The translations under genes and the position numbers were made by a program. A DNA stretch of 64,000 nucleotides, taken from the NCBI GenBank assembly GCA_052327205.1, contig CM126219.1, positions 67,704,001-67,768,000 of the forward strand, written 5' to 3'. Positions within the stretch are counted from its first letter, which is position 1, and every line of letters begins with the position of its first letter. The notes beneath the pieces were generated by a model. It saw nothing but the letters and a program-made list of their open reading frames with translations. It searched no databases and was not told the DNA's origin. Below, piece after piece: positions 9,501 through 39,500 of the stretch. The stretch is from Somniosus microcephalus. Lineage: Eukaryota.

Positions 9501-12500
9501 CATCGGTCTTCACCAAGGAAGATGATGCTGCCATAGACAGAGTGAAGGAGGAGGTAGTGGAGATACTGGATGGGATAAAAATTGATAAAGGGGAGGTACT
9601 GGAAAGGTTGGCTGTACATAAAGTAGTTAAGTCACCAGGAACAGATAGGATGCATCCTCGGACACAAAGGGAAGAAATCGCAGAAGTACTGGCCATAATA
9701 TTCCAATCCTCCTTAGTAACGGGGGTGGTGCCAGAGGACTGGAGAATTGCAAATGTTACACCCTTGTTCAAAAAATGGTGTAAAGATAAACCCAGCAACC
9801 ACGGGCCAGTCAGTTTGGCCTCGGTAGTGGGGAAGCTTTTAGAAACCGTAATCAGGGGCAAAATTAACAGTCACTTGGACAAGTGCGGAATAATTAAAAG
9901 GAAAGCCAGCATGGCTTTGTTAAAGGCAAATTGTGTTTAACCAACTTGATCGAGTTTTTTGATGAGGTAACAGAGGATTGATGAGGGCAATGTGGTTGAC
10001 GTGGCGTACAGGAATTTCCAAAAGGCAATTGACAAAGTGCCACACAATAGGCTTGCCAGCAAAGTTGAAACCCATGGAATGAAAGGGATAGTGGTAGCAT
10101 GGCTATGAAATTGGCTAAGTGACAGGAAACAGTAGTGGTGAACGGTTGTTTTTCAGACTGGAGGAAGGTATACAGTGGTGTTCCCCAGGCGTCGGTTGAA
10201 GGACCATTGCTTTGCTTGATATATATTAATGACCTGGATGTGGGTGTACAGGGCACAATTTCAAAATCTGCAGATGACAAAACTTGGAAGTTTAGTGAAC
10301 AGTGAGGAGGATAGTGATAGACTGGTGGAATGGGCAGACACGTGGCAGATGAAATTCAATGCAGAAAAGTGCAAAGTGATACATTTTGGTAGAAAGAATG
10401 GAGAGGGGAAATATAAACTAAAGGGTCCAATCCTAAAGGGTGCATGAACAGGGAGACCTGGGGGTATGTGTGCACAAATCATTGAAGGTGGCAGGGCAGG
10501 TTGCGAAAGCAGTTAAAAAAAGCTTACAGGATCCTGGGCTTCATGAATAGAGGTATAGAGTACAAAAGCGTGGAAATGATGATGAACCTGTATGAAACAC
10601 TGGTTTGGCCTCAACTGGAGTATTGTGTCCAATTCTGGGCACCGCACTTTAGGAAGGATGAGAAGGCTTTAGAGAGGGTGCAGAAAAGATTTACGAGAAT
10701 GATTCCAGGAATGAGGGACTTCAGTTACATGGACAGACTGGAAAAGCTGGGGTTGTTCTCCTTAGAGCAGAGAAGGTTGAGGGGTCTGGACAGAGTAGAT
10801 GGAGAGAAACTGTCCCCATTGGCAGAAGGGTCAAGAACCAGAGGACACAGATTTAAAGTGATTGGCAGAAGAACCAAAGGCAGCATGGGGGAATTTTTTT
10901 TTTTTTTTTTATTAAAAAACTCAGCAAGTGGTTAAGATCTAGAATGCAATGCCTGAAAGGGTGGTGGAGGCAGACTCAATTACAGCTTTCAAAAGGGAGT
11001 TGGATAAGTACTTGAAGGAAAAAAAATTGCAGGGCTACGGAGAAAGGGTGGGGGAGAGGGACTAGCTGAAGTGCTCTTGCAGGCTCGCCAAGCCGAATGG
11101 CCTTCTTCCGTGCTGTAACCATTCTATGAATTGAAGGATAATTCAAATCCAAGCACAAAATTCCACTGTAGAATCCAGTTCAATTCCAGTGTAGAAATCT
11201 TATTTGAATATTTATGGATCAGTTCCACAAAAGTAACCCATACAATTTCTTTACATCTGTCTGGATTTGAAAAGCAGAAGTGTTGTACAGTGGACCAGGT
11301 CACTTATCCCATTTACACAATACTCTTCATATACACTCACTTGTAGTGGCTTATTTTCCTATTGGTGCTAAAGGCATTAATTAGCACCTTTATTAGCGGA
11401 CAGTAGAAAAATTAAGAAATGTAATGAGCACTTGCGCAAGGTATAATTGGCCTGCTGTCCACTGAATCATATCCCATCATGTTTTGTTAATTATTTGTTT
11501 ATGGGATGTGTGCGTCACTGGCAAGGCCAGCATTTATTGCCCCTCCCTCATTGCCCTGGAGAAGGTGGTGGTGAGCTGCCTTCTTTAACTGCTGCAGTCC
11601 GTGTGCTGAAGGTATTCCCACAGTGCTGTTAGGCAGGGAGTTCCAGGATTTTGACCCAACGTCGATGAAGGATTGGCGATATACTTCTAAATCAGGATGG
11701 TGTGATTTGGAGGGCAACGCTTTAAAAGACAGGATTGCCGAGAAAGCATTCATTTATCACAGTATAACGAGCCTGTCCTGGCTACAATTTTTGCAGTATT
11801 TCTGGGGACAGCTACAGCCGTGGAAAGACCATGAAAACACTAGTCCTGGTAAGGAGGCCAACCACAAGATTTTGGCTTTGCATTTTCTTCTACCACTCAA
11901 GCACCTCATTCAAGTACTCCCTCGTTACATATAATGGAATTTCAACTAAACATACTTAACCCAAATCGTTTAACTCACTAATATAAAGCAATCATTTGCC
12001 TCTCAAAAGTTGGATTCCCATATGTTACTTGGTAGTTATCACATTAGAAGCATGGAGTTATTTCTTAAATCCACAAAGTTCACCTAGCTCTTACCTGTAG
12101 TAATCTTGGCGACTTTCTCAGCACTCACTTTGTTTCCTTTTCCCTTTGACAAACTGTATTCCACAACATCCCCGACATCCAGCTCATCAACATCGCCCGA
12201 GAACTCACTGGGGAACCGCAAGAACATCAGTGTACAAAATGTAACAAGCTCAATAGTTGCAGCACTGCTCAAAGGTTGAAGCGTATACAGCTCGGACATC
12301 CTTGTATTGATTTTGTGCCAAGACCAATATCTCGGAACAGAGATTCAAATATTGGGAAACTAGTAAAGTGTCAGTATGCTGGTTAATATCACACTTCAAT
12401 GTAGCCCCCAACAATTAAAACAGCCATGTTTAAAAACGGGCAGTCGCTTATACCAGCCAAAAAAAAAAACAACCATTAGCATTAGTGTCAATTTTGAAGT

Positions 12501-18500: not shown

Positions 18501-21500
18501 GCTTCAATTACTCCCTCCCTGTGGCAAAGCATTCTATGTTCCAACAATTCAATGTAAAGAAGTTTCTCCTAACCTCTCTCCTCACTATTGTGGCAATTGT
18601 AAATTGATAACCCTCATTACAAATTCAGGTTTGCTGTAACTAGAAAATTCTTTAGTGTCAGTTGCTCCCTCAAGTGGTCCATCTTGCTTTTATGGAAGTT
18701 GACTCACTGTCCTGTATCTACAGTAGTATCCCGTTGCGATCTGGATTGGAACCTCAAACCTTTTGCATGTTTCTTCAGTCTCTCAGTAGGTGGAATGAGT
18801 CAAACTGGACAAAGTGAATTTGGTTTGATAGACAAGCTGTTTTATTCCACAGCAAGGCGAAACATACAGAGCAATAGGTATGATCAGTCACTTGGTTCAC
18901 TCAGTACAACTTATATGTGCATAATGATACAAAATAAAGGAGACGCGAGGCTACCGCCACTGAGGCTTTTAACTTTGAGAATAATGCTTTTATTCTTAAC
19001 CTACAGCCCAGAGCAGAACCACTCTCCATGCAGTCCAGTCTTTCCCAACCTTTCACTGCCTGTTCATGTATAAATCATAGAACTGATACAGCACAGAAGG
19101 CGGCCATTTGGCCCGTCGAGCCCATGCCAGCTCTCTGCAAGAGCACTTCAGTTAGTCCCACTCCCCCGCCCTTTCCCCGTAGCCACACAAATTTCTCTTT
19201 CAGATACCTATCCAACTCCCTTTTGAAAGCCACGATTGAATCTGCCTCCACCACCCTTTCAGGCAGTGTATTCCAGATCCTAACCACTCGCTGCGTAAAA
19301 ATCTTTTTCCTACGTCGCCTTTGGTTCTTTTGCCAATCATCTTAAATCTGTGTCCTCTGGTTCGTGACCCTTCTGCCAATGGGAACAGTTTCTCTCTATC
19401 TACTCTGTCCAGACCACTCACGATTTTGAACACTTCTATCAAATCTCCTCTCAATCTTCTCTGCTCCAAGGAGAACAACCCCAGCTTCTCCAGTCTATCA
19501 ATGCAACTGAAGTCCCTCATTCCTGGAATCATTCTCGTAAATCTTTTCTGCACCTTCTCGAAGGCCTTCACATCCTTCCTAAAGTGCGGTGCCCAGAATT
19601 GGACACAGTACTCCAGTTGGGGCCAAACCAGTGTTTTATAAAGGTTCATCATAATTTCCACACTTTTGTGCTCTCTACCTCCATTTATGAAGCCCAGGAT
19701 CCCATAAGCCTTTTTAAGTGCTTTCGCAACCTGCCCTGCCACCTTCAACGATTTGTGCACATATACCCCCAGGTCTCTCTGTTCGTGTACCCCCCTTCAG
19801 GATTGTACCCTTTAGTTTATATTTCCTCTCTTTCTTTCTACCAAAATGTATCACTTCACACTTTTCTGCCTTGAATTTCATCTGCCACATGTCCACCCAT
19901 TCCGTACGAAAAACTGTTCACCACTACTGTCTCCTGTCACTTTGTATCCAATTCTGTATCCTTGCTGCCACTATCCCATTTATTCCATGGGCCATCTTCC
20001 AAAAATCTGACTGCCTCCTTTAGTGTCTATGTTCAATTCTTAAAAGCCATTCGCTATCAAAAAGCCTGCCGCTCTCAGACCGATAAGTCATAGGGTTTTC
20101 CAACACTATGGCAAGAGATGTCTTTCTGAATACTCAAACTAATGAATTGCTTGTTTGGTCTCTTGGAAAAACAACTTCCAATTCGCATCCTAAACATCTC
20201 TCGTCCAAGTGCTCCATTAAAAGAAATTGGAGAGGATGCACATTGTTTTTAAAAACTCAGCATTAAAAGTAACTTATTCCAATTCCTTTGTGGAAAATGG
20301 TTAAAAATTCTAGAAATATGAAATCCAGACCAACCTTTCCCTATTCACCAGCAAATCCATCATAATTTTAAAGGTCTTCTCTGTCTATAATGAACTAATG
20401 GAAGTGGTCAGTAATTAAAGGCCCCTCATAACTAGTTTGCTTTCTAAGATATCAATCACCCCAGTGAACCCACGATGTATCCTAAAGTCCTTTTTATAAT
20501 GAGACACCAAAAACAAAGTACTGTAAACTAACCATCGCCTTATAACATTTATTAGCTCTTTACTCCTGTAAGGTTTTCCCTTCCTACATTACAACAGTGA
20601 CTACACTTCAAAAGTACTTCATTGAATGTAAAGCACTTTGGGACGTCCCGAGGTCATGAAAGTGGCTGTATAAACACAAGTGTTTCTTTCTCTTTCTTTG
20701 AGTTTTATAATAAATACCATTGGCCATTATGGTTTTATCTGCACTCGCAGGGATTAACTATTTGAACCCGTGTCATTCATTCTTTTCAATGTCTGCAGAA
20801 ATAAAAGAATGTAAATTTTCAATTAATGCCCTCATTTTAAGTAAGTTTTTAAAACTACTGGGCAGCACAATGCAGGTTTGATCCTAACCTACAGTCATGA
20901 CCTTAGCTGCTTTACAATTGGAAAAGGGAGAAAATGGCTGGTGCACACCAACCCGCAATCCATCAAAACTGGCAGGGGTCTTACATTAGGGTAAAAATCA
21001 GAGAAACGAAGGGAGATTTCCATTCCAATATAATAGTGTAAATTTCACTTCATTCCTCCCCCCACCCCCCTCCAAACAAGGATGAATTGCAATCCAGAGG
21101 GCCAAATAGTGCTCTCCAGCCATATTACAGGGTGACGAGCACATTAAAGCAGACATACTAATTCTGTAGTCTTTGGAAATGCAACAATGTATGCCAGGAC
21201 CAATATCTATTATATATGAAAACTGCCGAGTGGGTCACAACAGTCCATTTCAAAATATATTGAAAATTCCTGTCATACAACTTTAGTGGGAAAACCCATT
21301 TATTGAAGTATAACTTATTTGCACCACCCGTTACATCTGTAGATGGTATTATCATAGACGTGTTAAATTTCAAATCTGTCATGCAACATTAGGTTTAAAA
21401 ACCAAAATCAGAACGTGACATTGTAAAGGAATTACTGGCGTCATCCTGCAGCTCCATAGCATGGCCACATGGTGGCTCTGCACCAGCTTCTCAATTCGCA

Positions 21501-24500
21501 GGGCTTATGTTGTGCCTGAGCTGCATGGAGTCTCCTTGGCCCCAAGGCAAGAGAATATTGCAATAGATGCCATTCAACGCCACCAACACCCACCCCCACC
21601 ACAGAAAACCTGAACGCCACCTGAAATTTTATTCCCCCTCACTCCCAGCCACCATGGGTTCTCATCTCCCCATTTTTGCCACACTAACCAACCACTACAC
21701 AACTCGGCCGCCCGCCCTCTCCCCAACTGGCTGCTATTGGCCTTGGCTGCAGGCCCACTATGCACCTTGCCATCACCCCGGTCCTCGTAGCCCCCCCAAC
21801 CCCCACCATGGACCTCAGCGGCTTTACTCCTCGGATACACTCCCACTCCACTGATTCCCCGTACTGCCAAAAGAGCTCAGCCACTCAAAATCTCAACTGA
21901 CTGATGGCCTGCCAGTGTGCTAGCTATCTTCTCGGGCTGCAACACTACGCCTAAACCCCCCACCCCAACAGAAGGTCTTTCACCCTAACCCGGCTATTTT
22001 CATGTGCTAGCCCCCTTCTTCCAAAGAACGTGCCAGGACACCCCGCCATAATGAAGTGTCTTGAGCTTCATTGCTCTCCACTCTTATGGGCTTTCTGGGT
22101 ACAGGGGGGGGCGCTGTACTGTCAGAGATGCAGTCTATCGTATGAGACCACAGAGACCCCATCGACCCCGTTAAGAGGACATAAAAGATCCTATGGCACT
22201 ATTGAAGGGCAGGAGAGCTCTTTCGGTGTCCTGCATAATAGTTATCCCTCCCCTCAACCATCACTAAAAATAGGGTCTGCTGTAAAATAATTGATAGAGC
22301 TTGACTGCCATAATTAGTAAACAATCCCATTATTGTTGGGTTTTCTCATCTAGCAATTCCCATGATCCTTTGGTTCTCGGTCACCCCCTCCCCACCTCCT
22401 ACTTTCCCTTTCCACTTTCCCTACCTTAGTCCAGTTATCCTTCAGTCCTCTAACCACCCTGGAATTGAATACTGCACTTAGGCTTGACTTCCCATGTGCA
22501 ATGCCACAGGAGATGGGCTAGTATTTTTCTATTAATGAAGATATCAAAATTAAGTACATTAGGGAGGCAAGAGTTACGACCATCATGTGATTACTATAAC
22601 CTACAGCATACACATTCTACAATCAAGTACTGCAATAAGAGGCACTGCCAATTCTTCAGAAGTATTTAGCTACAATACAAACCCGAATTGTGGACCACCA
22701 CTACATTTTGGGCTGGTTGCAGTTCAAAATGTAATAATGGCTTTAATAATTTAATAGAGATGGTCATTTTACCTTCAGTAGCAATTGAAAAATTGTACTG
22801 GTAAGACTAGGAATCACCCACACAAGTTTACCTTATCACCAAGCTGTGGAATTGCACACCCTTCCAGGTCTTTTATATGGTATGGTACGGTCATTCTTAT
22901 CCCAGTCTCCTCATATGCAAGGATTCCCTCTTCGGCATCCTAAAGAGTGACAAAACGGGACAAGTTCAGCAACAGTGGAAGCCACTCCGACACAACCCTA
23001 CATGTTGTTAACTGGACCAGAGTTGGCAAAATTGTCTTCATTGTGGGATTCTCTGGTTCCTAAAAAAATTCAACTATGTTCATCAAAAGTGATGTGTAAC
23101 AAAAATCCACATGCATATATTTTTAATTCAGTTATTAAACTAACATGCAAAGTTTTTTCCAATCAATTTCAAACATGTCACCATTAAAAAATACAAATTC
23201 TGTAAAGATCATTCCCCCTCCAACAATACTTTGCAATATTTAATACATTTTGTCTTGTTGAAAACAATACTATATTGTAAGTGGTGCTCACTTACAATTT
23301 CTCCAGTAATCGGTGAATAGCATATATACATTTAAGGGGAAGCTAGAGAAGTATGAGGGAGAAATGAAGAGGGATATGTTGATAGGATTAGATGAAGTAG
23401 GGTGGGAGGAGAAATAACAGCAGAAAATGCTGGAAACACTCAGCAGGTCCAGCATTTTCTGTTATTTCAGATTTCCAGCATCCGCAGTATTTTGCTATTG
23501 TATTAGGGTGGGAGGAGGCTTGTGTGGAGCATAAACACGGACAGACCGGTTGGGATGAATGGCATGTTTGTTTCTGCACTGTAAATTCTATGCAGTCAAG
23601 TGTTGAACACGCAGTGATTTTACCATCACAAGATTACACGAGGAAGGTCATTTGACCTAATATTAGCTCATTCATCCGAAACAGGCTCGAGGGGCTGAAT
23701 GGCCTCCTCCTGTCCCGATATTTAGATAGAGTAGAGTAAATAAAGAGAAATTGTTTCCAATGGCTGAAGGGTTGATAACCAGAGGGCAGAGATTTAAAGG
23801 CGATTGGCAAAAGAACCAGAGGCGACATGAGGAAAAACTTTATGCAACAAGTGGTGAGGATTTGGAATGCACTGCCTGAGGGTGGTGGATACAGATTCAA
23901 TAGTAGCCTTCAAAACAGAATTGGATAAAAAGACTTGAAGGAGAAAGAATGGCAGGGATATGATGAGAGAGAAGGCGAGTGGGACTATGGATTGCTCTTC
24001 GAAAGAGCTGGCACAGGCTCAGTGGGCATGGCCTCCTGTGCTGTACGATTCTATAATCTATGATTCTACGTTCCATAAAGAAAAATCTACACGGCAGTAT
24101 CTAACTTTCTTAAAGGATTTTCAACTTCACTACTCAATCTGAAAGTCAATTCCATGTGTTGATTATTGTGTGAACAACTTCTATACTATTATAAAATTTG
24201 CCTTTATTTTTGAATCCTACTTGGTTTTGGTGTCTGGTCTGACAAAAAGGCCATCAACCAGAAACATTAACTGTGCTTCTCCCTCCACAGATGCCACCTA
24301 ACCTACGGAGTATTTCCAGCATTTTCTGTTTCTATTTCAGATTTCCAGCATCCGCAGTATTTTGATTCTGTATTGGTTTAGGTGTCAGCTGTCTCTCCTC
24401 TCCTTTTTATTCAGAAAATGTTTCCAGTAATTTGTGAAGGTAGTATAGTTGTTTTAATACCAGGATGCTAGTACAGGAAACTTTGTTATCCGGAGGCTAA

Positions 24501-27500
24501 ATGTCCAGCAAGCGCGAGCCACCAGCAAAAATCAGGAGCCGTTTTGTTAGGTTTTTTTTCTTCGTGGCTTTTCCCCCCCCCCCCCCCAACAATCAGGCTC
24601 TGCAAAGTCTCTGTAGCTTAGCAACAGCTTCAGAGAGACGCTTCCAAGGTACGGGCCGACTGTTTAGAAGCTGTTGCTAAGCAAGTGTTTGTTGTCAGAT
24701 GGAGATGAAAAGCCCCGTATGCTTCAACATTAACGCTGGTGTGTCCGGCAGTTGAGGGAACGGCAACAGCTCGGTCCCGTCGGCGCCGGATAGCACAAAG
24801 TTTCCTGTACTCGTTGATATCCACAACTTTCCTGGTTAACATCTTGATTTCCAAAAAGGAGTATATCCGAGAACATTACTTTGTATCCATATTGTTGAGT
24901 TGAGGAAATCCTCATTTGTCACATTTCATGCCCCTGTATTTTCTCCCTATTGTTTACAGTTATATGTCCTTTTCAGTATTCCATGTAAACGTTCAATATT
25001 CTCTCACTCCAGGTAGGCAGATCGGCATCCCAAGACATTTTCTTTACGACACACATTGCTATCCACTTTCCTGAGCAAAGAATCCTCATTAACTACAATC
25101 TCTGACCTACAGACATCATAGCCCAGGATGTCCCCAACTACCATTTCTTCAGAAACCTTATTGAACATCTGCAATGTTGGAGTGCCTAGTAATGTTATTG
25201 TAATCTTTTGTAGTTAACACAGGTTTACTTGCTTCTTTTGCCAGCCTTAATCCATCCAATTCTACCCACATTTCCTTGGCGTCAGCCATGACTCAATGGG
25301 TAGCACTCTCGCTGCTCAGTCAGAAGGCTGTGGGTTCAAGTTCCACTCAATACTTGAGCACAAAAATCTAGGCTGACACTCCAGTACCGTGCTGAGGGAA
25401 TGCTGCACTGTCAGAGGTGCCGTCTTTTGAATGAGACATTAAACAGAGGCCTCGTCTGCTCTCAGATGGATGTTAAAGATCCCATGGCACTATTTCGAAG
25501 AGCAGGGGAGTTCTCCAGCAGTGTCCTGGTCAATATATACCCCTCAACCAACACCTAAAACAGATTATCTGGTCATCGTCACATTGCTGTTTGTGGAAGC
25601 TTGCTGTGCGCATTTCCTACATCACAACAGTGAAAAGTACTACACTTGAAAAGTATTTCATTGGCTGTAAAGCACTTTGGGACATCCTGAGTTTGTCTTT
25701 CTTTCAGCCCTTGTCTGTATCCTGACCACCCTATCCCTGGTTGTAATGGTTTCTACCTCCATCCCCTGATGGCTCACTCTCAAGGTCTCACATTAGTCCA
25801 ATCATTTCAGCGACCTGTGGTGACTGACTTACTGAGTCTAATGTTATTAATAATCCCCTCACTTTTTCCTACTCTTGTAATTTACAGCATTTTGCTCTCT
25901 GAGCAAAACACTTCCTTTGAACTTACTGATTAGCAGACAGTTTTCTCAAGTCTTCCTTTATATCTGGCTTTCTTGTTCATAAACATTCCAAAATGTAAAT
26001 AGACCACAGCCTCAATCTTAGACTCATGTTAGTCTCACTTTTAGTCTCATTTCTCTAGTTTGACCCATTTTAAATGTACTTTTTCAGTCTTTTAGTTGAT
26101 AACTTTGTTCTAAAAGTTCCCTTTTAATTCACTTCCCTCAGGTATCCTTTTAATTTTGACTTGTCTGTTTGGCCGCTTTCGCCATCTATATCTCTGGTGT
26201 TCTTTCATCGTAGCTTTTCGCCACTCCTTGCCTTTAACATTAAATGCCATTTGGAAAAACCTAATACTATTCATCCCTTTTTGAAACTCACGCTCTTCAA
26301 GGCTTTGGGGAGGGGAACTCACTGAAATAATCTACTGTACAAAACTTCCATTTTATCTTTCCTTTTAAACTAATGTGGACATCATATTGTAACTGCATGG
26401 AATGATTTGCCAGTAGGCAAGGCATTCACAGCCAGCCAAAATTGAGCAAAACTGAAAAATGTCCCACTCTATACATTACAAATAGCATTTTATGATCTTC
26501 TTTAGAAGACGGTTATAAAACAGCTCATCATAGGTATACATTACAGTTCTGTAATCAGCTGCTATTCTATATAATGGGAACATAGGTACAAGGCCATTCA
26601 GTCCTTGAGCCCATTCAATGAGATCATAGCTAATCTCGATCTTAACTCCATCTACCCGCTTTGGTTCCGTAACCCTTAAAACCATGCCTAACAATCTGTA
26701 CAAGAGTTTTCCAGTTTTCTACTACCCTGTGAAGAAGTGCTTCCCGACGTCACCCCTGAATGGCCTGGCTCTAACTTTAAGGTTATGCCCCCTTGTTCTG
26801 GACCCCCACTACCAGAGGAAATGGTTTCTCAGCTCCTTTAATCATCTTAATCAGCTCAATTAGATCACCCCTTAATCTTTTATACTCAAGGGAATACAAG
26901 TCCTCAATTTAATCCTTTTAGCCCCAGTATCAGTCTTGTGGATTTGCACTGCTCCCCCGCCAAGGCCAATATATCCTTCCGGAGGTGTGGTGCCCAGAAC
27001 CGAACGCAGTACTCTAAATGGGGTTTCACCAGAGCTTTATATGACTTACATAACTTCTACTCCTTGATGTTCCAGTTTCCTGGAGATAAAGGCCAACATT
27101 CCATTAGCCTGACCTGTCCAGTATCTTTCACTGACTTCTATACCTGGACCCCTAAATATCTCTGCTCCACCACAGTTTCTAGCTTTGCACCATTTAGAAA
27201 ATACTCTGATCAATCTTTCTCGGGTCTAAAGTGGATGGCGATCGAGTCCCTGCTTTTGATAAACTTGTAATGCCACAGTTGTGCATGCACATGTCTTCAT
27301 ATCTGGAGTCAAATTTAATGTATTGCACCATACCACATTGCTTTTAACTCAAGAGGAATTAGGACACATTCAAATCTTGATCACACTACACAACCTTAAA
27401 ACATATTTGCGCTATTGGACATCCAACAAGTAGAGAAAGTACTCAATACTTCTGAATGAAATGCAAGTATTCTACATTTCTGCTATACTGTACGTCATGC

Positions 27501-30500
27501 TATTAGTGAATCACATAAGAAGTACACTCCATTATTTCAGAGCAAATCTTTAGTAATTACATGAACAGAGGCAGATACTAAATTTTAACCATCTAGCAAT
27601 ACTGAATTTGCTGCAGCTATTCTATCGCTGCACTCTATTAATGATACCATATACAGGCTGAGACACCCCACATTATCCTCAAGAAACAACTGAAAGGTAT
27701 CGCCACCACAGTAAACTAAATTCATGCAAGTCACACCTAAAGATGGAAATATATACCACTGCTGCTAGATTTCACGTGGTGTATTTATTATGCAAGGTGG
27801 TCAGTACAACCCCCCCCCCCTCCCCCACTAAGAGCTGCTGTATATAAACAACAAATATACCCCAGAAAAAGTTCGGCATCTCAAGTTTAAATTTCGTCAT
27901 TACAAGTTGCACATCTGGATGGCTCAATAATCCAAATGGAAATATCTAAATCAAGTTCCTGAATTCTAAGCACCTTACCTCAAATCTAAGTTTACCTTGC
28001 CTCATAGAAAGAGCACTTGTTAAATATAAAGCAACTTGCTAACTCCACTATCCCCAATACAGGAAAATAGGCAACACCTTCAAGAGGTGACTGGATTAAC
28101 CAGATACTCAGCACTCAAGCTTTGATAAATTCCATCCACCATTTATAGAAAATTACAATGCCATTTCAAAAACAGCAAAGAAACAATGCTAAGGAAAACG
28201 AATACTGGGATCAGACCCGGCCAGCGGTTCAATTTACACTCATTTGCTTCTGCCCATTTAATAGAAAATTTACATAGCATGTGCAGAATTGGAATCTTGA
28301 ACCAGGTGATCCTGCAAGGAGCTAAGTTAGCGTGCGTGTTGGAATGCTAAGATCACTGAAGCATCCCTGGGTCAAATGGTCCTCTACTGATGTCAGCTAG
28401 CTTTCTCAGTTTTAATTCAGACTGCCATATCTGCGCTGAAAAGACTGTAAAAGCCACTCAAACTGGCAAACTGCAGGACAGTCTGAGCAGCTTCGCAGCA
28501 GCACCACACGTTGGCATCCTGTCTCAGGCATGGAAGCCAATTCAGAAGAAAGCACAAAAATGTTACTATTGGCCCAGCTCAAACAACAGATGGGATATTA
28601 ACTTTTAACTTTGGCCTCGTGTTATCCAAGTCCACGTAGAGAACACATAGCTAGGAATTCTACTGCAAACCCAAGTAAAACAGAATTTATGACCACATTC
28701 ACCCATGTCAGTTTTTTGTGCCCGAAGAAAACAGCTTTTCTAGGCTCAATTTAATGCAACAAAATTCTTCATTGTGAAGAATGTGAATTAGGCGTTAAGC
28801 AGATTATCATTTGTCTCGTTTCACCTTGCACACGACATTTATAGGTTATGCAGAAACTATAAACTTAAGGCATATTTCTATAAAGTTTATTAAAGTAGTT
28901 AGGCAGAACGCAATCCACAAATATCACAACGTGCACTTAGGATAAGCAAAATGAGAAACTCATTTAAGCCAATAAATAGTTCACAGCAAGGCCCTACAAT
29001 TCATTATTTAGAAATCTGAAAATGCCCATTCAAGAATTTAGGGTTTTCGCAGGGAGGATTCAATTAACTTCACTACAAATATTAAAATCAGTACCCCTGT
29101 CAAACCATGCCAAAACCCCAGTTGCCACTTACACCAAAGCATCACACCCCAAACGTACCCAATCATGAAAAGCAACATGCATTTTACTGAAGTGACAAAC
29201 AGGATTTGAAAGGATTCCCATACCTTTTCTTTTTTCTGAACAAGCAAAGATAACACACAAGAAAAGAAAGAGAATAATTTTAAATAGAGCCAAAGTCAAA
29301 AGACTAGATGGAAAAGAAAAAAATAAGGCACCTTTTGAGGGCAAGCTTGCAGTTGGTAAAATAGTCAAGAGATCCAATTCAAAGATCAAAATCATTTTTC
29401 CCAGAAGCTTAACCTTTTTTCCCTTCCCTGCAGCCAAAAAAAAATTCAGCTCCATGACTCCCTCCCCCAAGCCAATCAGTCCAAGGTACCTAGAGACAAG
29501 CTCAAGTGGCAAGAGAAAATCAATTGGCAGAATGGTACAGAAACAAGGTTTTGAGGGGAAAGGACGACATTAAAAATGACAACTGATCACTTGAGCATCA
29601 ATAGCCCACACCGATCACTAGGGTATTATGCCATGAGCTCCATAGCACCCCTCATTTCCTTCTTCCATCCCCAACTTCAATCTTCAGAAACACACATTTT
29701 CTTAGTCATACAAAGAGGTTTGCAATGTTGATTTTCATCTGCACTCTCAGACCAAGTAAATGCAGGGCAGCGTAATGTCATAGCACAGTAATGTACTCTA
29801 AACTACACCAGGGAGTAGTGGACAGAAGGTTACAACCATGATTATTACATACACTCATTTCCAGTGTGGTGTTGAGCAGAGTCTAGGAGTTTTACCCATT
29901 GGGGATAATAATTGTTGGCAATCCCAGAGTATCCCTGTGCATCTGCCAGTGGCGGCTTAAGGCAGCAGTGAGAGGTCGGCGAGAGGCTGCGTACACAGTG
30001 ACAGAGGTCGGCAAGAGGCCGCGTACAGAGAGAGAGAGGTCGGCAAGAGGCCGTGTACATACATTTCAGCTAGGGAATAGCGAGAGGATGCAGCAAGTGT
30101 AAATAGCGTCGGAAGAGGTGACAAAAAATTGGAAAGCCTGCAATCAGTTTTCATGGGCATCTACATCACTAAGATTGATACTGTTCAATCACCTCTGCTG
30201 CATCCCCCCCCCCACACACACACACTAAGCCAAGTCTCTCAATTAGGTTCCCCCTGCCATAGTGCTGAACCCACGCCTTTTGCCAGTTGTTATATCTATG
30301 TACATGGAGGGATTCTAGATTTATAAAACACACCAATGCATTTTTTTTTTTTTTTAAATAAGCAGAACACCTTAGTCTACTAAAGCACTCCACTTACTGC
30401 ATACCAGTTTGCTCCAGTGATTTCCAATACCCCGATTTTGAAGACCGAACCAAATGATCAGAATCATCTGACGAAGGGTCATCAACTTGAAACAGTAACT

Positions 30501-33500
30501 TTGTTTCTCTCCACAGATGCTGCCTGACATGGAGTATTTCCAGCATTTTCTGTTTTGATTAGAATCAGTGTACCTTCAAAAGGTCAAGTATGCTGACAAA
30601 AAGCAGAGAATGCTGAAAGGTAGGTTACACCAGGGGCCACAGCAAATTGTTCCACTGTGATTACATAGAAACATAGAAGATAGGAGCAGGAGTAGGCCAT
30701 TCGGCCCCTCGAGCCTGCTCCGCCATTCAATGTGATCATGGCTGATCATCCAAATTCAGTACCCTGTCCCTGCCTTCTCCCCATATCCCTTTAGCCTTAA
30801 GAAATATATCTAACTCCTTCTTGAATATATTTAATGAATTGGCCTCAACTGCCTTCTGTGGTAGAGAATTCCACAGGTTCACCACTCTCAGGGTGAAGAA
30901 ATTCCTCCTCATCTCAGTCCTAAATGGCTTACCCCTTATCCTTAGACTGTGACCCCTGGTTCTGGACTCACCCGCCATTCGGAACAGCCTTCCTGCATCT
31001 AGTCTGTCTAGTCCCGTTAGAATTTTATAAGTTTCAATGAGATCCCCTCTCATTCTTCTAAACTCTAGCGAATATAAGCCTAAATCGACCCAATCTCTCT
31101 CCATACGTCATTCCTGCCATCCCAGGTATCAGTCTGGTGATTCTTCGCTGCACTCCCTCCATGGCAAGAACATCCTCAGATAAGGTGACCAAAACTGCAC
31201 ACAATACTCAAGGTGTAGTCTCACCAAGGCCCTGCACAACTGCAGCAAGACATCCTTGTTCCTGTACTCGAACCCTCTCACTATGAAAGCCAGCATACCA
31301 TTTGCCTTCTTAACCGCCTGCTGCACCTGCATGCTTACCTTCAGCGACTGGTGCACAAGGACACCCAGGCCTTGTTGCACTTCCCCTTTTCCCAATCTAT
31401 TGCCGTTCAGATAATAATCTGCCTTCCTGTTTTTGCCACCAAAGTGGATAACCTCGCATTTATCCACATTATACTGCACCTGCCCAATCGCCCAACTTGT
31501 CCAAATCGTACTGGAGTTTCTCTGCATCCTCCTCACAGCACACACGCCCACCCAGCTTTGTGTCGTCTGCAAACTTGGAGATATTGCATCTAGTTCCCTC
31601 GTCTAGATCATTAATATATATTGTGAATAACTGGGGTCCTAGCACCAATCCCTGCGGTACGCCACTAGTCACTGCCTTCCACTCAGAAAAAGACCCGTTT
31701 ATTCCAACTCTTTGCTTCCTGTCTGCCAACCAGTTTTCTTTCCAAGTCAGTACCTTACCCCCAATCCCACGTGCTTTAACTTTGCACGCTAATCTCTTAT
31801 GCGGGACCTTATCGAAAGCCTTCTGAAAGTCCAAATACACCACATCCACTGGTTCTCCCTTATCTATTCTACCAGTTACATCCATTAGAATGTAGAATTC
31901 TCTGCCATGGAAAGGATATGGGGAACGAGGCGAGTGGGATTAGATTACTTGTGGAGGGAGCACTGGTGTAGACTTGATCGATCATTTGACCCTTCTACGT
32001 CATGCATTCCCATCTCAGTTGGGTTGTTTGTGGAAGTGCCCAAAGTAGAGATGCTTAAGAAAAGTAGGTTGAAGAGAGGTCAGCCTGCAAACAATTCTTG
32101 GCCACCAAATTATAGCGTAGTAATCAGAGACTCAACTACAGAATGGTACGTGGTGCAGGACCAAAAGAACGCAGAGTTTATCAATTAAGAATTATGCATA
32201 TTTACATTTCACAAATTAGTCAACTTTAGTTAAACAAAATCAGCAAGACAAATAGAAATTTTGAAGATTCAGAACCACATTAGAGTCAGACTATTATTGC
32301 ATTTACTATTATTCCTACCCAACAAGGTTTTCTATCATTTTACTGATCACTGTACAAAAAAAGGGAACAGTTGCAATCCAGCCTACACAGACTAAAAACT
32401 GCTATTCCTTAGCAAGTGGCAAGTTAATATAAAGGCAGCATGCTAGAGATAGCAACCTACACACTTTATATTTGGGGAGCAGAACCAAAATGTAGGGAAG
32501 TAGCTGCCCTCAAAAGGATGCCACATCAGGAATTAATTTAGAGGTTTTTATTATTAAAACCCAGAGATAATTTTTCAGCAAATTCATTTTACACTAGTCA
32601 TAACCACTTGCCCAGTTTAAACTGCTCGTGTCTGATAGGGGATAAAGCCTAAATTCTGTGATCAAGTTAAGGGCCTTCAAGACGCTTCTACTTTCCCAGT
32701 CCAGATACATGATAAAGTTCCCTATACTCTGCCCTGGTAATGTGCCTCAATTCTAATTTAGAAGTGAATGTTATTTCTGAAGCCAGCCATTCTTATGGAC
32801 CTATGAACAAGATTCCCAACAGATGTCAACCATCAATCGCCATACCTCCCACTAGGAAACTGAACTGCTAACTCATTTCCAACATTCCACTAGTGCATAA
32901 ACTGGAAGAGATCAGTATCATGGCATTCAGGCCCTACCCAGAAAGAAGTGAGCAAATCTAAGACAGCACATTTAACAAGTCTTTCATAGAATCTTACAGC
33001 ACAGATGAAGGCCATTCGGCTAGTCATGTGCGTACTAGCACTTTGAAAGAGCAGTCGTGCTTAGTCCCACACCCCTGCTTTTTGTCTGTAACCCTGCAAG
33101 TTCAAGTATCTGTCTAACTCCCTTTATGGAATCAACTTTCACCACCTTTTCAGGTAGAGCGTTCCAGATCCGAACAACTCAAATTATTTCTTCTCATCTC
33201 CCCTGTAGATCTTTTGCCAATGATTTTAAATTCATGACCTTTGGTTATTGACCCACTCACCAGAGGGAACAGCCTTTCTTTATGTACCCATCATCTTGAA
33301 CAACTCAATTAAGTCACCTTCAACGTTCTCTAAGCTGTGTGGCCGTGCAGCGCTCAAGGTGCCACGCAGCCGGCTTTTAAACAGCAAAACCGCGTATGCG
33401 CAGAATTTTGAATGACCCGCGCAGCTCATTAATATGCGGGCTAACAAGAGAAGTTAAAGATAGTATTGGTCAAAGGAAGAGGCTTATAATGTTGCAAAAA

Positions 33501-36500
33501 AGTAGCAAGCCTGAGGATTGGGAGGATTTTAGAATTCAGCAAAGGAGGACCAAGAAATTGATAAAGGGAAAATAGAAAGAGTAAACTAGCGAGAGACATA
33601 AAAACAGACTGTAAAAGCTTCTATAGGTATGTAAAAAGGAAAAGATTAGCAAAAGTAAGTCCCTTACAGGCTGAGACAGGAGAAATTATACAGGCTGATG
33701 CAGGAGAAATGATAATGGGGAATAAGGAAATGGCAGAGAAATTGAACAAATACTTTGGGCTGAATTTTGCCGGCGTCAGAGTGCGGGTTTGGAGGCGGGT
33801 CCGCTGTCAAAATCAAAATGATTGACAGTGGGTTGGAAACCCGCTGCAAACCCACCTCCATGTAAGTTTCCAAAGTGTCGGGTCAGCGATTTCAGAACAG
33901 ACCCAACGCCAAGCGGCAGGGGAGACATTTAAGATACTTAACTGCTTGTTAAGTGCTTGTTTACTACTATTTTGCCAGCCTATTTCTACCACATTTTTAA
34001 CAGGGTTCACGTCAGGTAAGGTGGTCAGGTTCTCTAGGTCTCCCCATTGCTGTGAATAGGTGACAACTGCAAAAGTGGTATGAAAGCTACCACGTCACAG
34101 CTGGTCACATTCCAATGTCAGAAGCTTGAGCCTTCAGGACTTGGAAGACACTTTTGAGCTGTATGCAGTTTGGAAGTGTTTGGAGTAAACTCTCCATCCA
34201 CTGTCACCTCCTTGGAGCAAGCGCTTTCATTATTGACAGGTCACTTCTCTATCATCTCAGCTTCAGCTGCCATCTATTCCAGCAACATCGATGTCCTTGA
34301 AAAAACCTTGGTCCTCTGAATCCCTCCACGATCAACCCAAACACAGGACACACAGCATCAGCACCCGACAACATTGCTGCCCAGGAGGGCAGCGATGGCA
34401 TCACCATGGCTAGATTTACTTCACTTGACGCTGTACACCCTGGCTGCCACATGATGCACCAGGTTAACCCCACACCATCACCATAAAGCATTCCTACAAT
34501 GACCAAGCTATTCCTTTCACAATCACCATTGCGGGGGGTACCGTTATGTCTCACTATTCACTGCAACTCACTAAGACCCTTTCAAAGGTGAGCACAGATC
34601 TGTAAAATAAGGCAAAGTGTTGAAAATAAAGATTTCAATGTCTGACAACACATTAGAGAAAATTTACATGAACATTGCATAAGACACCCAGGTGCCTACC
34701 CTTGTGTGTTAGTTGGTATGATTGCACTAGTGAGAGGGTGAGGGGTGGCTAGTGAGATGGGGAAGTGATAATGTAGATAGAGAGGGATGGGTGAGGGTGC
34801 AAGGTAAGTTGGGGTGAGTAAGGATGTGCAGGAGTAGGGTAGGGAAGGCAGAGTGATGGGATGTGATGAGTGGCACAGCAGGTGAGGTTGAGTGTGGCTT
34901 TGCAGTTTCGTAATCTAAGATCATTGAAAGGTTTGTGCCACTGCAGCCAGGTACTCCTGACGACATCCCTGCTTTTTCCCTCCTGTGCAATGTGCAACCA
35001 GGCTGCGTTGGTGTCCTGGGGAGGTCTACTCCACCCGTGGAAGGGAGGAGAACCTCCCTGCGTGCTGTGACTCCCTCCATAAGCATATGGAGGGAGTCAC
35101 GAGAGCGCCTAGGTGCAGCCGTGCACCTTTGTGCAGTGCTAGTCAGTGTTTGCAGCACCTCAACGCTGCAGAACACAGACAGCACAACTGTCAAAATAAA
35201 TGCGGCCATGGTCCCTTTAAGGAAGTCGGCTGATGACACATCAAATGATGTCATCAGACCCGCTTCCTTCCAATTGGCTGGGAATCCCGCAGGGCGGGCT
35301 TAACAAGCCCCTTAACGGAAAATCCTTTTTACAGAGCAGCTGCAGCGGGACTGGAACCCACCAACCACCTGTCCCGCCACCACTGGCAAAATCGTGGCCT
35401 GTGTGTCTGTCTTCATGGAAGAAGACGCAAAAAACTTTTCGTAAATAGTGGAGAACCAAGGCTCTAGCGAGAATGAGGAACTGAAAGAAATTAGTAAAAA
35501 AAATAGTACGAGAGAAATTAATGGACTGAAAGCCAATAAATCCCCATGACCTGATGGCCTACATCCTAGGGTTTTGAAAGAGGTGGCTAGAGATAGTCAA
35601 TGGTTGTTATTTTCCAAAATTCCATAGATTCTAGAACAGTTCCTGCGGATTGCAAGGTAGCAAATGTAGCCGCACTATTTAAGAAAGGAGGGAAGAGAGA
35701 AAACGGGGAACTACAGACCAGATAGTTTGACATCAGTAGCAGGGAAAATGCTAGAATTTATTATTAAGGACGTGGTAACAGGGCACTTAAAAAATAACAG
35801 GATTGGGCAGAGTCAGATTTATGAAAGGTAAATTGTGTTTTGACGAATCAGTTTTGAAGTTTTAACTAGCAGAATAGATAAGGGGGGGAAGCAGAGGATG
35901 CGGTGTATTTGGATTTTCAGAAGGCATTCGATAAAGGTGCCACACAAGGTTATTAAACAAAACTAGGGCTCATGGGATGGGGGCAATATACTAGCATGGA
36001 TTAAGGATTGGCTAACAGACAGAAAACAGAGTAGGAATAAACTGGTCATTTTTGGGTTGGCAGGCTGTAACTAGTGGGGTGCCGCAAGGTCAGTGATTGG
36101 GCCTCCGCTATTCATAATCTACAAGAAACTAGTTTAAACAGCACCTAATTATCCGAAATTCTCTAATAACCGGCAAAATTCTGGAGTAGGTTGAGGCTTC
36201 CGTATACTGTATATTTGTTGCCGTGTAACCAGGGCCCCTGCACCTGGGTCTGTGGAACGGGGCTCTCGTACCATGGGCCATTGTCACTCCATGTCCCTTC
36301 TTTGTTATCCGGAATTCTTAATCAACCGGCACCATCCCGGTCCCGTCGGTGCCGGATACCAAAGAGTTTCCTGTATATCAATGATTTGGATGAGGGGACC
36401 AAATGTAATATATCCAAGTTTGCTAATGATACAAAGCTAGTTGGGAATTTAAGTTGCGAGGAGGATGCAAAGAGGCTTCAAGGGGATATAAACAGGCTAA

Positions 36501-39500
36501 GTGAGTGGGAAAGAACATGGTACATTAACTTGAATATAATGTGGAAAAATGTGAAGTTATCCACTTGGTAGGAAAAAAAAAAAAATAGAAAAGCAGAGTA
36601 CTTTTCAAATGGAGAGAGATTGAGAAATGTTGGTGTTCAGAGGGACCTGGGTGTCCTTGTAGACAAATTACTGAAAGTTAACATGCAGGTACTGCATGCA
36701 ATTAGGAAAGCAAATGGTATGTTGTACTCAAATCCTCTTGTAATAAAGGCCAAGAGTAAAGGCGTCTTACTGCAATTATATAGGGCCCTGGTGAGACCAC
36801 ACCTGGAGTATTGTGTACAGTCTATATTCTCTAGAGTTAAGAATGAGAGGTGATCTCATTGAGACATACAAAATTCTTACAGGGCTCGACAGGGTAGATG
36901 CAGGGAGGATGTTGCCCCTGGCTGGAGAGTCTCGAACCAGGGGTCACAGTCTCAGAATAAGGGGTCGGCCATTTAGGACTGAGATGAGGAGACATTTTTT
37001 CACTCAGAGGGTGGTGAATCTTTGGAATCCTCTACCCCAGAGGGCAGTGCAGGCTCAGTCGTTGAGTATATTCAAGACAGAGATCGATAGATTTTTTTAG
37101 ACATTAAGGGAATCAAGAGATATGGGGATAGTGCAGGAAAGTGGAGTTGAGGTAGAAGATCAGCCATGATCATATTGAATGACTGAGCAGGCCTGAGGGG
37201 GCAAATGGCCGACTCCTGCTCCTATTTCTTATGTTCTTAAAGGGGCCACTGGTCACCTCTTAACCTTCTCTATTCCATTCTTTGATCAGGTTAACTAGAG
37301 ATGGAACCCTACATTGCTCCAGAGATAATTCCAACATCTTGGTTAATATTTCTAAAGCAGCCACAATATTTATATTGCAATCAGTTCAGATAAAGAAGTT
37401 ATCAATTTTCTCTAAAAATTAAACATGCTATGGTATTGAGTTACAAAAGGGCATCTCAAAATTACCACACAACCAATCTCCCAAGCTACAGTTTTTAAAG
37501 GCAGCCAAACACCAAAAAAGTTCATTAGCCCAAGGATAAATGTTTGGAAAGAGTCTCAAATTTTTCTTTAATTAACAAACTGAAGAAACTGTCATCTTTC
37601 GTGTCTGGGATTACATTCCTCCAATTCAGATTACCTTTTCTTTACCCTTGGCTGGGCTGGTGGATTTAGATATTGAACCAGTAGCTTCTTTCTCCACCAT
37701 CCCAAAGTAACGCTGCTCAGATTGCGTGTGAAAGGACACAGTCCCTTTTGGAAGTTTTTTAATACGAATTGCATGGTTCCTCTGTGCTGAAAGTACATCC
37801 TTTAGAAGGAAAAAAAATACATTTTAAATTACTGATTGATAAAAGCCAATACCCAATACATAGGCTACCAAGAAAAAGACTTGCCATGACTCTTGTGTAT
37901 ATATATGATCTATATTTGGATACTAAAAATTTAATGTTTTGACATCATAGGCAAAATATCCAAATTTTAAAGAAAAACCAATGTGAAGACCAGCCTCTAG
38001 CTAGGATTAGAAAATTGGCTTTAAATTGCTCATCTTCTGTATCTACTCTATGACTGGAAGTAACAAAACTGTGGGCGTCACACTCATCCAGAAACGGAAA
38101 CATGGTGTATCAGTATTTTGTGCCATAAAATTTGATACTGCTAGTTGAAACCACTGTGGAAACAAGAAACATTAAATATTTATTGCAAAGTTATAATTTT
38201 GTGGGTGGTTGGGGGGAAGAAAGAGAAATTCTCATTCTTCTCCAGCACTCCCTGCACTATTCCTCAAAGGCAGGCAGACCCTATCTACCCCAATGATGCT
38301 TTGCTGGGAGGAGGCCAAATGTGCATGAAGCAACCTGGCCTCCAATCTTCCGTTCCTTGAGGAGAGCTTCTTCCCCTCCCCCAACAACTCATTTCGGGAT
38401 CAGAATTCAGCACAGAAAATTTTCAAGGGATTCATACTCTGTACATCAAAAGCAAAACACTACAAGACTTTATATTTTTAAACATACTTCAAACTGTGCA
38501 TACAAGAATCTTGAAGTAATGCTGTCACTTGACCCTGGTTGTAAATGTATCAACATAACAAGTGTGTATCTAATAACTTGTCAAAGTCAGATATTTCAAA
38601 CTTTCATTTACTTAGTTTGTGATTTTCTACCCCGCCTCCCAGTTTCCTTCCTTCACCAAAGGACTCGGTTTGCTGAACAGTTCCATCGGCCACTCTGTCT
38701 CTTTCAGATACCTCACACAAGTGGCCACTCTTCACGTTTAATCAACCATCAGATTGGTTCAGTTGGCAGCACTCACCTCTGGGGCAATATGTTGCGAGTT
38801 GAAGTCCCACACCAGGATTGAGCACATAAGATAGGCTGACACTTCAGGAGGGAATGCAGTACTGAGGGAGTGCTGCATTGTCAGAGGCTAAATTAAAGCC
38901 CTGTCTACCTGTTCGGGTGGATACAAAAGATCCTACAGCACTATTCTGCATGTACCACAGCCAATATTCCTTCACCAACCAACATCAAAATTAAACCAAG
39001 TATATCTCAACTGCTGTTTCTGGGATTTTGCTGTACACAAACAACTGTTCGCCTACAGCAACTGCAGCTAAACTAACCCATTGGATGTGAAGTGCTATAT
39101 AAAATTAATTAATTTGTAGACACAATGTTGACTTCACAGAGGCCAACTGTAGTGCCTTTACCACAACCCCAGGTGAGAGCAATGAACCAGGGATCAGAGA
39201 TCCAGTGTATGGTTCCTTTATCAACTCAGTCATTGGAAAAGCTGCCAATCAGTATTTAGACACATAACAAAAGCATCCAATATATAAATTGAAGCACTTA
39301 CAGGGACAACTGTGAACTCAACTTCATCTGAGATGTGGAGCTGGAGACTATCCATGATCTCACTAAAGTGGAAGAACATTCGAGCATCTCGATCTACACA
39401 TTTAATGAAACCAAAACCATCTCTCATGGCTGCAATCACACCCTACAGAGAAAAGAGAATCTGTAAATCTGCAGAAAAAAAAGGAATTTAGAAATCCTAA

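What the first reader, a model, noticed from the sequence alone, without database searches (positions are those of the whole stretch)
29100..29290. Hidden 12-nt in-frame CSDE1 microexon (KKEK) with a neural-microexon cis-code
Seen: on the minus strand a long polypyrimidine tract ending TCTTTGCTTGTTCAG is followed by AAA AAA GAA AAG (29235-29224) and the donor GTATGG. Both flanking exons (ending 37635, starting 22939) are phase 0, so inclusion gives ...[17 protein letters not shown]..., a denser lysine cluster in an inter-domain linker (after the equivalent of human K452). A UGC sits about 10 nt upstream of the AG. TGCATG lies 43-48 nt downstream (29176-29181), and another GCATG at 29106-29110. 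Established: upstream UGC motifs are the SRRM3/4 (nSR100) signature, and downstream UGCAUG is the RBFOX enhancer position for neural microexons. Inference: this is a neuron- or muscle-regulated isoform switch in a translational regulator. It is absent from the canonical human protein as I recall it and invisible to the ORF track. I have an unverified recollection of a similar basic tetrapeptide in some teleost csde1 isoforms.
Basis: partly seen in the sequence, partly recalled or inferred. Interest (0 to 1): 0.78.

Follow-up and report, generated by a model that had tools for sequence, protein, structure and literature searches.

The report
Ancient four-residue microexon in shark CSDE1
A 12-base stretch inside a shark gene for the RNA-binding protein CSDE1 matches a tiny optional exon already listed for other sharks, bony fishes and amphibians; it would add four mostly basic amino acids to a predicted flexible loop, likely in some tissues only, and is probably not the neuron-only switch first proposed.

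Summary
The exon is very likely real and is already catalogued; the neural SRRM3/4 reading is doubtful. The AG-12 nt-GT unit and its motifs are at the stated places. Database isoforms carry KKEK or a variant at exactly this junction in 4 of 12 shark species, chimaera, bichirs, gar, paddlefish, teleosts, coelacanth, caecilians and frogs (133 of 438 scorable proteins). A published table holds the inferred zebrafish counterpart (11 of 12 bases identical, 203 brain junction reads). It was absent from all 26 sauropsid, 27 batoid and 16 salamander proteins listed, and has no mouse partner in that paper. The zebrafish event I infer to be this exon is classed as alternative but not neural, and shifts only -1.2 PSI in srrm3/4 mutants. 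The insert lies in the flexible beta1-beta2 loop of non-canonical domain ncCSD6, not in an inter-domain linker. Junction reads from this species were not seen; the read tables were swamped by repeats. Best reading: an ancient, likely RBFOX-enhanced cassette exon that tunes loop charge. No earlier scan note on it.

The parts
29224..29235 (-). 12-nt phase-0 cassette microexon encoding KKEK
   Evidence: Sequence; same insert in shark and chimaera isoforms; zebrafish counterpart with 203 junction reads
29236..29303 (-). 3' splice site with extended polypyrimidine tract; AG-free zone of 66 nt
   Evidence: Longest AG-free zone (others 16-43 nt) and highest 50-nt pyrimidine fraction (0.76) of 8 acceptors tested; highest predicted unpaired fraction, 0.68 against 0.35-0.53
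29293..29299 (-). Candidate distal branch point (TTGACTT, A at about -61)
   Evidence: Pattern match only; inferred
29244..29246 (-). UGC at -11 to -9 (SRRM3/4-type position; also within a YGCY MBNL-type motif)
   Evidence: the motif is common (37 of 110 acceptor-like sites)
29218..29223 (-). 5' splice site GTATGG
   Evidence: 6 of 9 matches to the consensus, like the flanking exons
29176..29181 (-). TGCATG, RBFOX-type site 43 nt downstream
29106..29110 (-). Second GCATG, 114 nt downstream
   Evidence: 2 or more GCATG occur in 1.5% of random 150-nt windows
37635..37799 (-). Upstream CSDE1 exon: end of CSD5, beta1 of ncCSD6 and start of the loop
22832..22939 (-). Downstream CSDE1 exon: beta2 onward of ncCSD6
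   Evidence: covered by same-species RNA reads and by a spliced contig

Best explanation
This 12-base unit between AG and GT is very likely an optional exon of shark CSDE1, inherited, by inference, from the ancestor of jawed vertebrates, that would add KKEK to the predicted disordered beta1-beta2 loop of domain ncCSD6 and is likely switched on in some tissues by RBFOX-type proteins rather than by SRRM3/4. Shown: the sequence anatomy, orthologous isoforms with and without the insert in the same species, junction reads for the zebrafish counterpart, and the loop position in the model. Inferred: the exon is too short for normal exon definition and is skipped by default; the long pyrimidine tract and distal branch point give the spliceosome room; RBFOX bound at +43 and +114 raises inclusion where RBFOX is abundant (muscle, heart, part of brain). 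Inferred effect: loop net charge rises from 0 to +2 a few residues after an invariant S/T-P-x-K/R site, without changing the fold. This would fine-tune RNA or partner contacts, or phosphorylation of the loop, rather than switch the protein on or off.
For: Insert at this junction in 133 of 438 scorable proteins across cartilaginous fishes, ray-finned fishes, coelacanth and amphibians, with both forms in one species (Mustelus 5 with, 4 without; Callorhinchus 4 of 11; gar 5 of 9). Lineage-specific variants (KKET, KKDK, KKVK, KKGK, KKER) argue against a mapping artefact. Zebrafish brain table: 12-nt exon with 203 reads and a 15-nt exon with 28 reads in one intron, matching teleost KKDK and GKV(V)EK. 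Zebrafish events of 12 and 15 nt numbered just before the csde1 event are non-neural and srrm3/4-insensitive. TGCATG within 100 nt downstream occurs at 2 of 13 donors of this gene, the microexon and the cassette exon at 58256-58155. RBFOX downstream of microexons promotes inclusion in brain, muscle and heart (PMC4317164, passages). Loop position: alignment to Drosophila CSD456, AlphaFold strands 443-449 and 476-482 with pLDDT under 50 at 454-472 and the insert at 468-471, and this loop is flexible in the crystal (PMC7383231, passages).
Against: No junction read from this species was seen. No tissue PSI was obtained for any species, so muscle or heart inclusion is not shown. RBFOX dependence is untested, and TGCATG alone is weak (8.8% of random 250-nt windows). 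Conservation of the flanking motifs was not shown: another species' DNA contig over 28605-29383 differs at 41 of 779 bases, like the other intron pieces. The acceptor also looks like a textbook SRRM3/4 target. The link of DreEX0024476 to csde1 is inferred from ID order and length. The whole-protein model is of modest quality (mean pLDDT 65, pTM 0.34). 8 of 12 shark species listed showed no insert, though only some of their isoforms were listed.
Confidence: 0.5

Rival explanations
1. One reading: a neuron-specific microexon switched on by SRRM3/4 through the UGC at -11, helped by RBFOX.
For: UGC at -11, 66-nt AG-free zone, distal candidate branch point and unpaired acceptor match features reported for neural microexons (PMC12871342 and 10.1101/2024.09.17.613571, passages). 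The zebrafish counterpart is spliced in brain.
Against: Not among the 246 zebrafish neural microexons. Inferred ortholog has lowest dPSI -1.17 over three mutant comparisons, where 191 of 243 neural microexons fall below -15. UGC is common (37 of 110). Caveats: low inclusion in larvae would hide an effect, the ID match is inferred, and the shark could differ from zebrafish.
Confidence: 0.25
2. A real but weakly regulated exon, included at low or broad levels, whose product is nearly neutral because it lands in a disordered loop.
For: Not found in any of 27 batoid, 16 salamander or 26 sauropsid proteins listed. The third residue varies freely. The same junction takes many other inserts (5-31 aa) in different lineages. 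203 reads over 23 brain samples may be a low share, but the denominator was not seen.
Against: Retained in cartilaginous fishes, ray-finned fishes, coelacanth and two amphibian orders with 11 of 12 bases identical between shark and zebrafish; splice signals and RBFOX-type motifs are intact.
Confidence: 0.22
3. A chance AG-12-GT match or an alignment artefact, since the last 9 bases plus GTA repeat the end of the upstream exon.
For: 12 consecutive identical bases around the two donors; no junction read seen in this species.
Against: Isoforms in many species carry inserts that differ from the upstream exon end; a dedicated microexon caller reports the zebrafish exon with a single intronic match and P about 7e-7.
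Confidence: 0.03

Closest known systems
Annotated CSDE1 isoforms with this insert (e.g. Mustelus asterias XP_078098570.1, Scyliorhinus canicula XP_038675871.1, Callorhinchus milii XP_007899816.1)
   Same: Identical KKEK insert at the identical junction, alongside isoforms without it.
   Different: These are computed models without tissue or function data; whether this species' own annotation has the exon was not checked.
Zebrafish 12-nt microexon chr8:22527303-22527315 (danRer11; PMC7821500 Additional file 4), probably VastDB DreEX0024476
   Same: 12 nt, minus strand at the csde1 locus, 11 of 12 bases identical, encodes KKDK.
   Different: Followed by a second 15-nt microexon for which no counterpart was found in this shark intron. 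The table names no gene; the csde1 assignment is inferred from position and peptide.
SRRM3/4 (eMIC)-dependent neural microexons
   Same: 3-27 nt, in frame, UGC near the AG, long pyrimidine tract, distal branch point.
   Different: The inferred zebrafish ortholog is neither neural-enriched nor srrm3/4-sensitive, and no mouse partner was found.
RBFOX-enhanced muscle/brain microexons (Li et al., PMC4317164; Snap23 microexon, PMC12064062, abstract only)
   Same: Short in-frame cassette with UGCAUG just downstream.
   Different: RBFOX binding and tissue pattern are untested here; no QKI motif within 250 nt downstream, unlike Snap23.

Membership tests
Alternatively spliced in-frame microexon | 3-27 nt, multiple of 3, AG/GT-bounded, phase-compatible flanking exons | tested here: met
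Alternatively spliced in-frame microexon | Inclusion and skipping forms both exist in orthologs | tested here: met
Alternatively spliced in-frame microexon | Inclusion junction seen in this species' RNA | tested here: inconclusive
   only 15 of 752 joints and 24 of 3242 loose ends were shown, all at repeats; the upstream exon lay outside the laid stretch
SRRM3/4-dependent neural microexon | UGC between branch point and AG; extended pyrimidine tract; distal branch point | tested here: met
   (branch point by pattern only)
SRRM3/4-dependent neural microexon | Neural-enriched inclusion | tested here: not met
   For the zebrafish ortholog only: absent from 708 neural exons, grouped 'AS'. The ID match is inferred; shark tissues were not tested
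SRRM3/4-dependent neural microexon | Inclusion falls when srrm3/4 are lost | tested here: not met
   Inferred zebrafish ortholog, lowest dPSI -1.17; baseline PSI not seen
SRRM3/4-dependent neural microexon | Response of the shark sequence itself to SRRM3/4 | not testable with these tools
   Needs a minigene
RBFOX-enhanced cassette exon | (U)GCAUG in the proximal downstream intron and none upstream | tested here: met
   +43 and +114; none in 200 nt upstream
RBFOX-enhanced cassette exon | Motif conserved across species | tested here: inconclusive
   A relative's contig spans the site but base-level differences there were not shown
RBFOX-enhanced cassette exon | RBFOX binding and dependence; muscle, heart or brain enrichment | not testable with these tools
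   Run tissues are not given; needs CLIP, knockdown or a minigene

The most novel reading that the evidence does not exclude
An ancestral jawed-vertebrate splice switch, lost in amniotes and probably again in rays and salamanders, creates a K-K/R-x-K/R motif resembling a nuclear import signal (present in 131 of 133 loops with the insert, 0 of 275 without) beside an invariant S/T-P-x-K/R kinase-type site (438 of 438) in the signature loop of a non-canonical cold-shock domain. It would give fish and amphibians a tissue-specific CSDE1 with altered location or RNA contacts, and it looks like an SRRM3/4 target without obeying SRRM3/4.
Probability: 0.1. Interest if true: 0.6.

Novelty: already known. 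Interest (0 to 1): 0.25.

Why it matters
Modestly. CSDE1 is a translational regulator linked to autism and intellectual disability (review PMC8670310, passages). The loop that marks its non-canonical domains turns out to be a splice-variable site in non-amniote vertebrates. The exon is also a useful test case for what a UGC-bearing acceptor needs in order to obey SRRM3/4, since it has the architecture but its inferred zebrafish ortholog does not respond. Humans appear to lack it, which limits medical relevance. The exon is in databases, but I found no paper that discusses it (searches; passages checked in two of the hits).

Tried and rejected
(1) Same-species RNA reads on 22700-29700 (runs X23, X24, X1, X20): intron repeats filled the tables and no row at the exon junction was shown. 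This is no evidence either way. (2) Hints not used as evidence: X24 depth averages 3.5 over 12 non-repeat bins I chose downstream of the microexon and 0.37 over the 2 bins upstream, and one X1 contig ends exactly at 29235. The tool warns that dips are no finding, and one downstream bin is also 0. (3) The run search listed no holder on record as RNA; no evidence. (4) A second microexon like those of teleosts, coelacanth or whale shark, or the 31-aa skate insert: no match in this intron. (5) Supplements with no 'csde1': PMC12626420 (12 of 13 files searched), PMC9303857 (18 of 18, the listed sheets being retina lists and GO tables), PMC13281805 (archive cut, so uninformative). (6) Mouse: no chr3 row among 2,987 microexons at the Csde1 position, which I recalled from memory. 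(7) A published Microcaecilia tissue set lists no brain while its RefSeq isoforms carry the insert; I cannot tie the two, so this is not counted. (8) NOVA, QKI, MBNL and GU-rich motifs are not enriched downstream. (9) The nuclear-signal idea is kept only as the novel case: the motif count follows almost automatically from the insert, the last lysine codon is also constrained by the splice donor, and one shark has KKET. (10) Earlier scan notes: none nearby and none holding both words. Supplements of bioRxiv preprints were not seen and could hold tissue data.

Full report
Observation. The minus strand reads ...TTGTTCAG, then AAA AAA GAA AAG at 29235-29224, then GTATGG. The flanking exons 37799-37635 and 22939-22832 are phase 0 with AG/GT ends, and tblastn of shark isoforms places them in a CSDE1 gene running from at least 58256 to 3350. 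TGC is at -11, TGCATG at +43 and GCATG at +114. Against seven other acceptors of the gene, this one has the longest AG-free zone (66 nt; others 16-43), the highest 50-nt pyrimidine fraction (0.76) and the highest predicted unpaired fraction (0.68; others 0.35-0.53). It is the only one of 10 short AG..GT[AG][AT]G candidates in the gene body with both motifs. Each motif alone is common: TGC at 37 of 110 acceptor-like sites, TGCATG in 3.5% of 100-nt windows.

Orthologous isoforms. Three protein searches (best 120 listed of 1094, 1046 and 373 hits) and two cluster look-ups gave 451 proteins. The junction could be scored in 438; 13 could not. Of the 438, 133 carry a KKxK-type insert, 275 carry none and 30 carry another insert. 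The set is biased, since one search's query contained the insert and large clusters were listed only in part. By lineage, with species assigned by me from the listings: present in Mustelus (5 of 9), Scyliorhinus canicula (2 of 3), Heptranchias (KKET, 2 of 3) and Rhincodon (2 of 2), that is 4 of 12 shark species; Callorhinchus 4 of 11; Polypterus 3 of 5; Erpetoichthys 2 of 6; gar 5 of 9; paddlefish 6 of 9; many teleosts (KKDK, KKEK); Latimeria 1 of 10; two of three caecilians (KKVK, KKGK); several frogs. Not seen in 27 batoid, 16 salamander, 12 Acipenser or 26 bird, turtle, crocodile and snake proteins (only 15 of the 526 members of the bird-led cluster were listed). No full-length mammalian protein was retrieved. 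That NCBI builds such models from spliced RNA reads is my recall and comes from no call.

RNA evidence from zebrafish. Additional file 4 of PMC7821500 (supplement rows and passages seen) lists, from 23 brain samples, a 12-nt exon at chr8:22527303-22527315 with 203 junction reads and a 15-nt exon with 28 reads in the same intron. The 12-nt exon differs from the shark exon at one base (compared by eye) and encodes KKDK. The table gives no gene name; I assign it to csde1 from the position of a named csde1 event on chr8 near 22.51 Mb in another assembly and from the peptides. Neither exon is among the paper's 402 mouse-zebrafish pairs, and the mouse table has no chr3 row at the recalled Csde1 position. 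Loss in amniotes is therefore likely but not shown on genomes.

Regulation. The list of 708 neural exons holds one csde1 entry, a 289-nt exon, DreEX0024480. The source data for Fig. 1F hold DreEX0024476 (12 nt) and DreEX0024477 (15 nt), both grouped 'AS' and not 'MIC_Neural', with dPSI of -1.17 and +1.93. These are the lowest values over three mutant comparisons, while 191 of 243 neural microexons fall below -15. That these IDs are the csde1 pair is an inference from their numbering and lengths, and no paper text names them. Low baseline inclusion in larvae could also hide an effect. The acceptor does match the reported architecture of neural microexons (passages), so the neural reading keeps some weight. 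For RBFOX: TGCATG within 100 nt downstream occurs at 2 of 13 donors examined (some placed approximately), the microexon and the exon at 58256-58155, which is itself present in some Mustelus isoforms and absent in others. A third cassette exon, 39442-39302, lacks the motif. RBFOX downstream of microexons promotes inclusion in brain, muscle and heart (PMC4317164, passages).

RNA from this species. Two raw-read RNA runs under the same species label as the best DNA holder, one contig set guessed to be RNA and one contig set of unrecorded kind from another organism were laid on 22700-29700. The downstream exon is transcribed from the expected strand (depth about 70 in X24, 3 in X23). Repeats filled the tables of joints and loose ends, the upstream exon was outside the stretch, and no junction row was shown. 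Inclusion in this species is thus neither shown nor excluded.

Protein position. The Mustelus isoform P0310 has the insert at 468-471. It aligns to Drosophila CSD456 (6y6e) over 278-526, with the insert in a gap between two conserved strands. AlphaFold with a 40-sequence alignment gives strands at 443-449 and 476-482 and pLDDT under 50 at 454-472 (mean 65.4, pTM 0.34). PMC7383231 (passages) describes an extended beta1-beta2 loop found only in non-canonical CSDs, with weak or absent density in ncCSD6, and reports that ncCSD6 does not bind RNA by itself. So the insert lengthens that loop. Net charge over the loop goes from 0 to +2, and all 438 scorable proteins have S/T-P-x-K/R just upstream; reading this as a CDK-type site, and K-K/R-x-K/R as a nuclear-signal-type motif, rests on recalled consensus motifs.

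Verdict. A very likely real, ancient cassette microexon, already present in RefSeq isoforms and a published microexon table, and not discussed in any paper my searches reached. It is built like a tissue-regulated microexon, but it should not be filed as an SRRM3/4 neural microexon, because two defining features fail in the inferred zebrafish ortholog. Probability that the exon is real, about 0.95; the RBFOX-type, not neuron-only reading, about 0.5. Interest 0.25.

Noticed in passing
window 37629-37643 and 29218-29232 (- strand): The last 9 bases of the microexon plus GTA are identical to the end of the upstream exon plus GTA. The zebrafish 15-nt exon (GKVEK) also resembles the upstream exon's end (GKEK). 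The microexons may have arisen by copying that exon end, or may converge on a purine-rich end.
   Followed up: partly
Junction between window exons 37635 and 22939, in related proteins: The same junction is a hotspot for other inserts: a second microexon in bony fishes (GKVVEK, VKVDK, SKVDK, NKPDK), 7 more residues in whale shark, 16 more in a spadefoot frog, and a 31-aa insert in two skates. The whale-shark, chimaera, teleost and skate inserts were searched in this intron without a match.
   Followed up: partly
window 58155-58256 (- strand), TGCATG at 58077: Another cassette exon (33 aa; present in Mustelus P0012, absent in P0014) has a TGCATG within 100 nt downstream. It may correspond to the alternative 'exon 5' of mammalian UNR (recalled).
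   Followed up: partly
window 39302-39442 (- strand): This 47-aa exon, encoding most of CSD5 with its FGF and FFHF RNA-binding motifs, is missing from several shark isoform models (P0004, P0005, P0011, P0012, P0014, P0017). If real, skipping removes a canonical RNA-binding domain in frame, a larger change than the microexon.
   Followed up: no
window 50494-50499 (- strand): At the boundary taken from tblastn (50500) the next bases are TATGTA, not GT; the true donor is probably shifted by a base. Not resolved.
   Followed up: no
window 30663-31878, 35776-37239, 19070-19991, 9909-11132, 210-2803: Introns hold several decayed repeats with reverse-transcriptase-like open frames, probably LINE fragments (label recalled).
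   Followed up: no
zebrafish csde1, PMC12626424 supplementary file 1: A 289-nt csde1 exon (DreEX0024480) is neural-enriched (dPSI +43.9) with no human ortholog; a shark counterpart was not looked for.
   Followed up: no
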